Of a stretch of 10,171 bases of DNA, positions 1,050 to 1,823 are shown in pieces. Every line of letters begins with the position of its first letter. The first letter of the stretch is position 1. Source of the DNA: a virus. The notes beneath the pieces are model-generated. The model saw nothing but the letters and a program-made list of their open reading frames with translations, had not been told where the DNA came from and ran no database searches. The stretch is taken from UHGV virus genome UHGV-0316333; one strand, 5' to 3'. The position numbers were made by a program, and so were the translations under genes.

Positions 1050-1823
1050 ATGGATATTACTGAGTTTCCTTCTGGAGTAATTGAACACCTTGGCTGGTAT
1101 GTATACCGATTGATTGATCCGAGGGACGGAAGCACCTTCTATGTAGGGAAAGGCAAAGGTAACCGCGTATTTGCCCATATGCGCGGTGAAGTGGCAGCGA
1201 CTGATGATGACGAGTTACTGAGCAACAAGCTAAAGCAAATTAGAGAAATAAGGTTAGCAGGACTTGAGGTTATCCATGTCATCCATCGACACGGAATGAC
1301 TGATGAAAAGACGGCGTACGAAGTCGAAGCAGCACTTATTGATGCCTACCCTGGGTTAACGAATATCATGAATGGTGCTGGCAGCAATGAATTCGGCGCC
1401 GCGCATGTCAAAGAGTTGATAGCAACATATCAACCCGAAACCATAACATTTCATCATAAAGCATTAATGATTTCCGTTAACAGAAGTGCAAAGGATTCAG
1501 AGCTTTATGATGCGGTTCGATTTAGCTGGCGCATTAATGCCTCTCGCGCCAGCCAAGCAGAAGTCATTCTTGCTACTGTAAGGGGGATCGTTCGAGGGGT
1601 TTTCATTGCTGATAAATGGCTCAAATCAACACGTGAAAATTTCCCTACGATGAAATACTGGGACGAAGATCCTGACTTTGAGGCAACACAAAGTTCTCGC
1701 TATGGTTTTGAAGGTCGAGAAGCCCCACCTGAAATAGCTAATCTTTATCTTGGAAAAAAAATACCAGATGAATTAAGAAAAAAAGGAGCTATGTCCCCGG
1801 TCCGTTACTCACCTAATTTTTGA
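1050..1823 (+). CDS. GIY-YIG nuclease-domain protein with an unrecognised C-terminal domain (cargo gene at the mcrA/mom-equivalent position)
   Basis: ORF-track frame 999..1823; I prefer the ATG at 1050 (MDITEFPSG...) over the TTG at 999, though neither has a strong Shine-Dalgarno. Numbering from the 999 start, the motif reads G32-W-Y-V-Y36, then 11 residues, then Y48-V-G50-K-G, then R56 and H60, then E108/E110 and N122/N125 ([21 protein letters not shown]). This is the GIY-X10-11-YIG ... R ... H ... E ... N arrangement of UvrC and I-TevI type catalytic domains. GC content is visibly lower than the tail genes. Confidence 0.6.

What the first reader, a model, noticed from the sequence alone, without database searches (positions are those of the whole stretch)
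1050..1823. GIY-YIG nuclease-domain gene occupies the variable cargo slot next to the Pin invertase
The translation carries the full GIY-YIG catalytic signature: WYVY, then 11 residues, then YVGKG, then R and H four residues apart, then a downstream E...N block ([20 protein letters not shown]). It is followed by about 150 aa that I cannot assign to any family. The gene sits in the slot just beyond the invertase, where e14 carries the modified-DNA restriction nuclease McrA and Mu carries the DNA-modification gene mom, so this is a known site for DNA-targeting accessory functions. Its GC content is clearly below that of the tail genes, consistent with separate acquisition. A GIY-YIG domain fused to an unknown C-terminal domain fits either a stand-alone anti-phage nuclease or a free-standing homing-type endonuclease (I-TevI and Seg proteins have the same N-terminal GIY-YIG plus C-terminal DNA-binding layout). 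This is the strongest candidate in the window for an uncharacterised system.
Basis: partly seen in the sequence, partly recalled or inferred. Interest (0 to 1): 0.8.

Follow-up and report, generated by a model that had tools for sequence, protein, structure and literature searches.

The report
Known 5hmC-dependent restriction nuclease CMoRE (PD-T4-3)
The gene is real and is an anti-phage nuclease, but it is already well known: it is 98% identical to CMoRE (PD-T4-3), a crystallised enzyme that destroys T4-like phage DNA carrying hydroxymethylated or glucosylated cytosine.

Summary
Window 1050-1823 (+) encodes a 257-aa protein. It matches the PADLOC PD-T4-3 model end to end (E 3.5e-140). It is 252/257 identical to E. 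coli O157:H7 CMoRE (PDB 9U75) and 218/257 identical to APEC O1 CMoRE (9U7U).

CMoRE/PD-T4-3 was found in a functional selection (Vassallo 2022). Liu et al. (Nat Commun 2026) then characterised it biochemically and structurally. [quoted passage not shown] The N-terminal 'GIYxY-YIG' nuclease has an acidic autoinhibitory loop. The C-terminal domain has a new fold and senses 5hmC/5ghmC. The enzyme is a tetramer, cuts at CN11/N9G, and gives direct (non-abortive) immunity to T2/T4/T6. Every residue the paper names is present here: Y17, Y19, Y31, R80, V92, L96, Y127 and the DDDE loop.

K-12 e14 carries mcrA at that position and Mu carries com/mom. The 'anti-phage nuclease' reading is right. The 'homing endonuclease' and 'uncharacterised' readings are not.

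The gene occurs in about 1058 of 5426 complete E. coli genomes. What I add is modest: the gene lies in a ~1 kb unit bounded by two copies of a hairpin repeat, and this unit turns up in several prophage contexts. Novelty: already known. Interest is low.

The parts
1050..1823 (+). [quoted passage not shown]
   Evidence: PADLOC PD-T4-3 E 3.5e-140, residues 1-256 on profile 1-255/256. PDB 9U75 E 1.3e-171, 252/257 identical; 9U7U 218/257 identical. PHROG 5356 E 8.7e-143. RefSeq annotates the same start in L001.
1050..1394 (+). [quoted passage not shown] It holds the GIYxY-YIG tyrosines Y17 (1098-1100), Y19 (1104-1106) and Y31 (1140-1142), plus R39, E91 and E93.
   Evidence: Pfam PF22945 covers aa 28-110, 54.2 bits. 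Residues checked. Their roles come from mutagenesis in PMC12923530.
1203..1214 (+). Four consecutive acidic residues, D52-D53-D54-E55, in the inserted alpha2-alpha3 loop (the autoinhibitory 'safety catch')
   Evidence: Sequence. The loop reads DDDE as in APEC O1 CMoRE and DDDD in O157:H7. The 4A mutant of the O157:H7 protein cuts ordinary DNA and is toxic (PMC12923530).
1422..1820 (+). C-terminal modification-sensing domain (about aa 125-257; boundary approximate), including Y127 (1428-1430), whose main-chain oxygen contacts the 5-hydroxymethyl group
   Evidence: No Pfam or NCBIfam family. Aligned end to end with 9U75 and 9U7U. The 5hm-dCTP complexes and the statement that no fold homologue exists are in PMC12923530. 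The window allele has A164 where the other five compared sequences have V.
862..1049 (+). Upstream region that travels with the gene. The presumed native promoter is here: candidate -35 TTGTGA at 989-994 and -10 TAATAT at 1012-1017, 17-nt spacer. This is inferred.
   Evidence: Homology with other carriers starts at 839 or 852 whatever the context. The upstream region is aligned. The candidate hexamers line up with TTGTCA/TATTTT upstream of the diverged APEC-type allele. The consensus promoter scan found nothing here at its threshold. In PMC12923530 the O157:H7 gene cloned with its native promoter protected about 1e5-fold.
1844..1881 (.). Hairpin AACCGCAGCACGATCTTGCATACGACGTGCTACGGTTT between the convergent stop codons of CMoRE and pin. 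It is the probable two-way terminator and the right boundary of the unit.
   Evidence: RNA folds: -17.4 kcal/mol (z -3.55) on + and -23.6 kcal/mol (z -3.97) on -. It is a member of repeat D1. The simple terminator scan did not call it because the T-run is weak.
824..861 (.). Degenerate second copy of the same hairpin; left boundary of the unit
   Evidence: Direct repeat D1, 824-851 / 1846-1873, 89% identical. In L002 the window's two flanks are joined through a single hairpin copy and the gene is absent. Homology breakpoints at 839 and 852 fall inside this copy.
1881..2435 (-). pinE-type serine DNA invertase (context, not part of the defence gene)
   Evidence: Pfam Resolvase 1.4e-51 plus HTH_7 1.5e-12. 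RefSeq names it pinE in L001. 91.2% DNA identity to K-12 e14 pinE.

Best explanation

Mechanism, as shown for a 98%-identical protein and inferred for this allele:
- The protein forms a tetramer (a dimer of dimers).
- The C-terminal domain binds 5-hydroxymethyl- or glucosyl-hydroxymethyl-cytosine at the edge of the domain, with the Y127 main chain contacting the hydroxyl group.
- A dimer reads two modified cytosines about 21 bp apart.
- The N-terminal GIYxY-YIG nuclease (Y17, Y19, Y31, plus a catalytic Arg and Glu) cuts between them at CN11/N9G, leaving 2-nt 3' overhangs. It needs Mg2+ or Mn2+.
- An acidic loop (DDDE here) lies over the active site. It repels ordinary DNA, so host DNA is spared.
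- Incoming T-even phage DNA is degraded and the infected cell survives. This is direct immunity, not abortive infection.

The gene appears to be expressed from its own upstream region in the lysogen, independently of the phage late genes (inferred).
For: Identity:
- Full-length PADLOC PD-T4-3 hit, E 3.5e-140.
- 252/257 identical to PDB 9U75 and 218/257 to 9U7U.
- None of the five differences from 9U75 (T51A, E55D, A164V, Q169K, N197H) touches a residue named as functional. Y17, Y19, Y31, R80, V92, L96 and Y127 are all present, and the acidic loop is conservatively DDDE, as in the APEC O1 enzyme.

Function of the family:
- PMC12923530 reports about 1e5-fold protection against T2/T4/T6; no protection against T4(C); cleavage of 5hmC and 5ghmC DNA but not C or 5mC DNA; the CN11/N9G cleavage pattern; a tetramer that is needed for activity; and a toxic 4A loop mutant.
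- PMC9519451 is the original selection that recovered the system.
- 10.1101/2024.12.20.629700 shows that deleting it in the native host NILS69 raises plating of Tevenvirinae phages.
- PMC12366544 shows that a 48%-identical Capnocytophaga homologue is modification-dependent both in vivo and in vitro.

Context:
- pin invertase and Mu-like baseplate genes.
- ymfQ and the baseplate-J gene remnant of K-12 e14 are 96.7% identical in DNA to the window.
- Low GC.
- The gene is present in 1058 of 5426 complete E. coli genomes.
Against: - Nothing was tested on this exact allele. A164 is private among the six sequences compared, and its effect is unknown.
- Expression is inferred only. The consensus promoter scan found no site at its threshold in 862-1049, and there is no obvious Shine-Dalgarno sequence before the ATG.
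- The APEC O1 allele protected only weakly from its own promoter, so the level of protection depends on expression.
- NCBIfam has no model for the protein, and RefSeq names it only 'LEM-3-like GIY-YIG domain-containing protein'.
Confidence: 0.95

Rival explanations
1. It is a free-standing homing-type GIY-YIG endonuclease (like I-TevI or the Seg proteins). It would cut a specific sequence in a competing genome that lacks it, in order to spread its own gene.
For: - It has an N-terminal GIY-YIG domain plus a C-terminal domain.
- There is a weak PHROG hit to a 'homing endonuclease' family (phrog_314, E 0.0021).
- Full-length homologues in jumbo phages are annotated 'putative homing nuclease'.
- The gene does appear in several genomic contexts as a discrete unit.
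Against: - The C-terminal domain senses 5hmC and has a fold of its own. It contains no NUMOD, IENR or helix-turn-helix module.
- T4 DNA is depleted across the whole genome, with no strict sequence requirement.
- T4 with ordinary cytosine is fully resistant.
- The gene lies between genes at prophage ends, not in or next to a conserved target gene.
- The jumbo-phage labels are annotators' guesses, not experiments.
Confidence: 0.02
2. It is an inactive or non-defensive passenger in this particular prophage: a silent or decayed copy, or a toxin-like nuclease that acts by abortive infection.
For: - No promoter was called by the consensus scan.
- This allele has one private substitution, A164.
- In strain NILS69 one related phage escaped the native-level system.
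Against: - The reading frame is intact and full length, with every named functional residue present.
- The upstream region is conserved with that of the O157:H7 allele, which protected when cloned with its native promoter.
- Cells carrying the system grow normally at MOI above 1, so it does not act by abortive infection.
- Deletion in a native host has a phenotype.
Confidence: 0.03
3. Its main role in this prophage is broader than blocking T-even phages. It would exclude competing temperate phages or other mobile DNA that carry other modifications, for example the Mom-type carbamoylmethyl-adenine of Mu-like phages. This would add to the best explanation rather than replace it.
For: - A 48%-identical Capnocytophaga homologue was recovered in a selection against Mu. 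It degrades Mu DNA at high enzyme concentration and protects against Mu when induced.
- CMoRE shows weak activity on arabinosyl-hmC phages.
- Here the gene occupies the position where Mu itself carries com/mom.
Against: - Activity on Mu DNA was weak and needed overexpression.
- That paper did not report a mom-minus control in the passages I read.
- The E. coli enzymes were reported as specific for 5hmC/5ghmC, with no binding to C or 5mC DNA.
- PD-T4-3 had no effect on vertical transmission of the one plasmid tested in NILS69; conjugation data for the PD-T4-3 mutant were not in the passages read.
Confidence: 0.1

Closest known systems
CMoRE / PD-T4-3 (E. coli O157:H7, PDB 9U75/9U8D; APEC O1, PDB 9U7U/9U7Z; original PD-T4-3 from E. 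coli ECOR68)
   Same: Same protein family and essentially the same protein: 98.1% and 84.8% identity over the full 257 aa. It shares the GIYxY-YIG motif, the acidic loop, the interface residues and Y127. Like the O157:H7 gene, it lies next to pinE in a prophage.
   Different: Five substitutions relative to 9U75; A164 is private to the window allele. The cargo to its left differs: a DUF6650-like ORF and an HNH protein here and in L001, against an AraC-family regulator in O157:H7.
McrA of prophage e14 (E. coli K-12)
   Same: It occupies the same position, just beyond pinE at the end of an e14-family prophage. It is also a single-protein type IV (modification-dependent) restriction enzyme acting on modified cytosine; RefSeq names it '5-methylcytosine-specific endonuclease McrA'.
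   Different: It has an unrelated fold and catalytic domain (HNH, from established knowledge, against GIY-YIG here). It acts on 5mC-type modification, whereas CMoRE ignores 5mC. It runs in the same direction as pinE rather than convergent with it.
PvuRts1I/AbaSI family and GmrSD/DUF262 type IV enzymes
   Same: They do the same job, cleaving hmC/glucosyl-hmC DNA of T-even phages. The CMoRE paper names PvuRts1I as the other 5hmC/5ghmC-specific enzyme. A DUF262 type IV enzyme (PADLOC mREase_IV, full length) lies beside a CMoRE allele in the same prophage slot in strain PU-1.
   Different: Different nuclease folds and sensor domains. There was no sequence match to the window protein in Pfam or PADLOC.
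I-TevI / Seg homing endonucleases
   Same: [quoted passage not shown]
   Different: CMoRE has no sequence-specific DNA-binding modules. Recognition is of a base modification, and there is no homing context.
UvrC N-terminal GIY-YIG domain / LEM-3 (ANKLE1)-like GIY-YIG domain
   Different: CMoRE has the extra tyrosine (GIYxY), a 15-residue acidic insert between alpha2 and alpha3, and a different partner domain.
Mu com/mom
   Same: Same map position: directly after the G-segment invertase at the phage end. Both concern DNA modification.
   Different: Mom makes a modification that protects the phage's own DNA. CMoRE destroys modified foreign DNA. They are not homologous, and the gene orientation is opposite.

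Membership tests
CMoRE / PD-T4-3 | Single-gene system; full-length similarity covering both the N-terminal nuclease and the C-terminal sensor domain | tested here: met
   PADLOC PD-T4-3 covers 1-256 of 257 aa on profile 1-255/256, E 3.5e-140. 9U75 and 9U7U align over 1-257. There is no co-conserved partner ORF: the conserved unit 839-1881 holds only this gene.
CMoRE / PD-T4-3 | 'GIYxY-YIG' motif with three tyrosines (Y17, Y19, Y31) | tested here: met
   The sequence reads W16-Y17-V18-Y19 ... Y31-V32-G33. The motif is defined in PMC12923530.
CMoRE / PD-T4-3 | Inserted acidic autoinhibitory loop with four consecutive acidic residues | tested here: met
   D52-D53-D54-E55. It is identical to the APEC O1 loop; O157:H7 has DDDD.
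CMoRE / PD-T4-3 | Oligomer-interface residues needed for the tetramer (V92, L96) and the 5hmC contact (Y127) | tested here: met
   All are present at the same positions. Their roles are described.
CMoRE / PD-T4-3 | Cleavage dependent on 5hmC/5ghmC, and direct immunity to T-even phages | not testable with these tools
   Shown for the 98%- and 85%-identical proteins. Not tested on this allele.
GIY-YIG nuclease superfamily | Significant profile match to a GIY-YIG family, with the conserved Tyr...Tyr, Arg, Glu and Asn residues | tested here: met
   PF22945 scores 54.2 bits against a cut-off of 27. PF01541 itself is below its cut-off (13.9 vs 22.6). The residues Y19, Y31, R39, E91/E93 and N105 are present.
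GIY-YIG homing endonucleases (I-TevI, Seg) | C-terminal sequence-specific DNA-binding modules (NUMOD, IENR1 or helix-turn-helix) and a position in or beside a target gene of a phage genome | tested here: not met
   No such Pfam domain at E up to 1. The C-terminal domain is the 5hmC sensor. The gene lies between genes at prophage ends in six loci.
McrA (HNH type IV enzyme of e14) | HNH catalytic domain; homology to McrA | tested here: not met
   No HNH hit in Pfam or PADLOC for the window protein. Only the map position is shared.

The most novel reading that the evidence does not exclude
The ~1 kb CMoRE unit (upstream region, gene and hairpin) is a discrete exchangeable module whose ends are copies of a hairpin repeat. 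That hairpin is found in thousands of places in E. coli genomes, often just after pin-type invertase genes. It may act as a preferred recombination joint through which type IV restriction genes and other defence cargo are swapped among unrelated prophages (e14-family and lambdoid). This would be more than ordinary illegitimate or homologous recombination at a terminator.
Probability: 0.1. Interest if true: 0.3.

Novelty: already known. Interest (0 to 1): 0.1.

Why it matters
For the gene itself there is little left to discover. The system is in PADLOC and DefenseFinder, and it has crystal structures, a defined substrate, a cleavage pattern and native-host genetics.

The result is useful in three smaller ways:
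- It removes a false 'uncharacterised system' lead.
- It documents that the position beyond pin in e14-family prophages repeatedly holds enzymes that attack modified DNA: McrA in K-12, CMoRE here, and a DUF262 type IV enzyme plus CMoRE in strain PU-1. Other relatives hold a type II restriction-modification system next to CMoRE (CE10, S8) or a SIR2-containing gene cluster (18AR0366).

The pattern fits the known tendency of prophage ends to hold anti-phage genes.

Tried and rejected
- NCBIfam gave no hit.
The related PF22945 is the significant one.
- Rfam at gathering thresholds and the tRNA scan found nothing in the whole window.
- The consensus promoter/terminator scan called nothing useful in 862-1049 or at the 1844-1881 hairpin. 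The promoter I give is a by-eye candidate supported only by its alignment with a diverged allele.
- Small ORFs in 380-1060 are all under 50 aa. None is conserved together with the gene, so I see no hidden second component.
- I looked for the hairpin next to mcrA in K-12 e14 and found none. The hairpin is therefore not a universal boundary of this slot.
- I considered that the prophage might be a transposable Mu-like phage and rejected it. Relatives have HK97-type capsid and protease genes. K-12 e14 matches ymfQ and the baseplate-J gene at 96.7%. The prophages lie at fixed sites such as ssrA and thrW, and the thrW-site relative keeps an integrase remnant.
- I did not run structure prediction, fold search or the large protein-database searches. 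Solved structures of a 98%-identical protein already answer those questions.

Full report
**1. The observation**

The six-frame ORF list shows an ORF at 999-1823 (+) from a TTG, with an in-frame ATG at 1050. From 1050 the product is 257 aa. RefSeq annotates this start in near-identical loci, and the crystallised constructs begin at the same residue.

- W16-Y17-V18-Y19, then 11 residues, then Y31-V32-G33-K34-G35.
- R39 and H43.
- Y90...G109, which contains E91, E93, N105 and N108.

Pfam gives the LEM-3-like GIY-YIG domain PF22945 at 54.2 bits against a cut-off of 27 (E 2.1e-14) over residues 28-110. The classic PF01541 is below its cut-off. Nothing in Pfam or NCBIfam covers the C-terminal ~145 residues.

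GC is 43.8% for the gene and 57.4% for the baseplate/tail genes.

**2. What it is**

The PADLOC library matches the protein to PD-T4-3 from the first residue to the last (E 3.5e-140). PHROG 5356, of unknown function, matches likewise.

Against solved structures, the protein is 252/257 identical to chain 9U75_A and 218/257 identical to 9U7U_A, both deposited as 'GIY-YIG domain-containing protein'.

These entries belong to Liu et al., Nat Commun 2026 (PMC12923530), which renames PD-T4-3 as CMoRE, for Cytosine Modification Restriction Endonuclease.

**3. How it works (published for the 98%- and 85%-identical proteins; inferred for this allele)**

According to PMC12923530:
- The gene alone, with its native promoter, lowers plating of T2, T4 and T6 about 1e5-fold.
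- Cells survive at MOI above 1, so this is direct immunity, not abortive infection.
- T4 carrying hmC is still restricted. T4 with ordinary cytosine is fully resistant.
- The purified enzyme needs Mg2+ or Mn2+. It binds and cuts 5hmC and 5ghmC DNA but not C or 5mC DNA.
- It leaves 2-nt 3' overhangs at CN11/N9G and needs two modified cytosines.
- The structures show an N-terminal GIY-YIG domain closest to that of UvrC, with an extra tyrosine ('GIYxY-YIG': Y17, Y19, Y31).
- A 15-residue acidic loop lies over the active site. Replacing its four acidic residues with alanine (the 4A mutant) lets the enzyme cut ordinary DNA and makes it toxic.
- After a flexible linker comes a C-terminal domain with no known fold relative. 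It binds 5hm-dCTP at its edge, with the Y127 main chain contacting the hydroxyl group.
- The protein is a tetramer (a dimer of dimers). The V92S/L96S mutant loses both oligomerisation and defence.

In the window protein Y17, Y19, Y31, R80, V92, L96 and Y127 are all in place. The loop reads D52-D53-D54-E55, as in the APEC O1 enzyme. The five differences from 9U75 are T51A, E55D, A164V, Q169K and N197H. A164 is private to the window allele among the six sequences compared.

Independent support comes from three other papers:
- The original functional selection (PMC9519451).
- A native-host deletion in strain NILS69, which raised plating of Tevenvirinae phages (10.1101/2024.12.20.629700).
- A 48%-identical Capnocytophaga homologue that cuts T4 DNA but not T4-GT7 DNA. 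At high dose it also cuts Mu DNA (PMC12366544).

**4. Surroundings**

- The gene at 1881-2435 (-) is a serine invertase (Resolvase + HTH_7). RefSeq annotates it as pinE in near-identical loci, and it is 91% identical in DNA to K-12 e14 pinE.
- The invertible tail-fibre segment lies between inverted repeats at 2497-2516 and 4085-4104. It is flipped in the closest genome.
- Beyond it are Mu-type baseplate genes (gp48, J/gp47, gp46, gp45, gp44/P), the DNA-circularisation protein and the end of the tape-measure gene, all on the minus strand.
- Despite the Mu-like tail, this is not a transposable phage. The ymfQ and baseplate-J remnants of K-12 e14 are 96.7% identical to the window. Relatives carry HK97-type head genes. 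They lie at sites such as ssrA and thrW, and the thrW-site relative keeps an integrase remnant.
- So the window is the tail end of an intact e14-family prophage.

In K-12 e14 the gene after pinE is mcrA, followed by the icd remnant at the prophage end. In Mu it is com/mom. The one difference is orientation: CMoRE is convergent with pin, while mcrA and mom are co-directional with the invertase.

**5. Is the slot variable?**

Yes. Among prophages with the same baseplate (97-100% DNA identity) or the same pin, the slot holds different cargo:

| Strain | Cargo in the slot |
|---|---|
| Window and strain VTB97584v | CMoRE, plus a DUF6650-like ORF, an HNH_2 protein and an IS1-truncated IetA-like fragment |
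| CE10 | Type II restriction-modification system plus CMoRE |
| PU-1 | Full-length PADLOC mREase_IV (DUF262) enzyme, the APEC-type CMoRE allele and an Aga_Helical-REase-like protein |
| ST69 | An acyltransferase |
| EC21Z-137 | An autotransporter |
| 18AR0366 | TetR regulator, CARF_ADA-like amidohydrolase, NTP pyrophosphatase and SIR2/ThsA-like protein |
| K-12 e14 | mcrA |

The CMoRE gene matches in 1058 of 5426 complete E. coli genomes. The baseplate module matches in 1423.

**6. A discrete unit bounded by a hairpin repeat (my addition)**

A 38-nt hairpin at 1844-1881 sits exactly between the two convergent stop codons. It folds well on both strands (z -3.55 and -3.97).

A degenerate copy lies at 824-861 (repeat D1, 89% identical over 28 nt).

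In most other carriers the similarity to the window starts at 839 or 852, inside the upstream copy. In some it ends at 1881.

In strain 18AR0366 the sequences flanking the unit are joined through a single hairpin copy, with no CMoRE gene. Window 665-860 matches L002 6001-6197, and window 1846-2516 matches L002 6161-6832, so the two matches overlap by 37 nt in the subject.

In strain S8 the same 839-1881 unit lies at the end of a lambdoid prophage at ssrA, directly after its tail-fibre assembly gene. It again has hairpin-like sequence on both sides.

Hairpin-like sequence hits 6713 places in 4251 of 5426 genomes, often at the 3' end of pin genes. No copy was found next to mcrA in K-12 e14.

The simplest reading is a 'moron'-type unit: its own upstream region, a gene and a terminator, exchanged by recombination at a common terminator hairpin. 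A dedicated exchange mechanism is possible but unsupported.

**7. Promoter**

The ~190 bp upstream (862-1049) travels with the gene and is nearly identical in four contexts.

The consensus scan called no promoter there.

By eye, TTGTGA (989-994), a 17-nt spacer and TAATAT (1012-1017) form a candidate promoter. It aligns with TTGTCA/TATTTT upstream of the otherwise diverged APEC-type allele. This is inference only.

**8. Rival readings**

*Homing endonuclease.* The evidence against it:
- The C-terminal domain senses a modification.
- Cleavage has no strict sequence requirement.
- T4(C) is resistant.
- The gene lies between genes at prophage ends in six loci.

Full-length homologues at 39-45% identity in jumbo phages are labelled 'putative homing nuclease'. 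Those labels are only annotations, and a 2026 preprint already lists PD-T4-3 as the one defence type carried by Chimalliviridae.

*Silent or decayed copy.* This is unlikely because the frame is intact and the upstream region is conserved.

*Wider range of modifications, for example Mom-modified DNA.* This is an open question that would add to the main explanation rather than replace it.

**9. Verdict**

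Noticed in passing
window 824-861 and 1844-1881: A hairpin-forming ~38-nt sequence flanks the CMoRE unit as a direct repeat. 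A related genome (L002) has the flanks joined through a single copy and lacks the gene. Similar hairpins occur at 6713 places in 4251 of 5426 E. coli genomes, often just after pin genes.
   Followed up: partly
window 1-387 (-), continuing beyond the left edge; L001 10210-11488: These are the first 129 codons of a 158-aa ORF with a TTG start at 387 and a perfect AGGAGG upstream. It has a weak, sub-threshold match to DUF6650 (E 3.7e-5) and no PADLOC hit. In the closest genome it is followed by an HNH_2 endonuclease-motif protein and an IS1-truncated IetA-like fragment. It may be another, unnamed two-gene defence pair in very AT-rich DNA (33-36% GC).
   Followed up: partly
window 2497-2516 and 4085-4104: 20-nt inverted repeats, 95% complementary, bound a ~1.6 kb invertible tail-fibre segment. 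The left arm lies inside the tail-fibre gene 3603-4388 (-). The segment is in the opposite orientation in the otherwise 99.8-100% identical genome NZ_CP178707.1.
   Followed up: partly
L009 1395-6489 (E. coli PU-1, same prophage family at ssrA): The same slot holds three nuclease-type defence genes together: a full-length type IV enzyme (PADLOC mREase_IV, DUF262, also similar to HEC-06), the APEC-type CMoRE allele (85% identical), and a protein similar to Aga_Helical-REase. Two different enzymes that target modified DNA therefore sit side by side.
   Followed up: partly
L002 2797-5869 (E. coli 18AR0366, slot beyond pinE): Instead of CMoRE the slot carries a TetR-family regulator, an amidohydrolase similar to the CARF_ADA deaminase domain (E 2.9e-36), a non-canonical purine NTP pyrophosphatase and a SIR2/ThsA-like protein (E 8.9e-32). 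This may be a nucleotide-targeting defence cluster. I did not identify it further.
   Followed up: no
phage records, e.g. NC_048792.1 6406-7161 (Serratia phage Moabite), NC_016571.1 158703-159449 (Pseudomonas phage OBP): Full-length CMoRE homologues (39-45% identity, 97-99% coverage) are encoded by lytic jumbo phages and annotated as homing nucleases. A 2026 preprint notes that Chimalliviridae carry PD-T4-3. They may be used against competing phages with modified DNA.
   Followed up: no
window 1539-1541 (codon 164): The window allele has Ala at position 164 of the sensor domain. The other five CMoRE sequences compared, including both crystallised proteins, have Val.
   Followed up: no
window 1-838: Only one of 5426 complete E. 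coli genomes (NZ_CP178707.1) carries the window's left ~840 bases contiguous with the CMoRE gene. This combination of cargo is therefore rare, although each part of the prophage is common.
   Followed up: no
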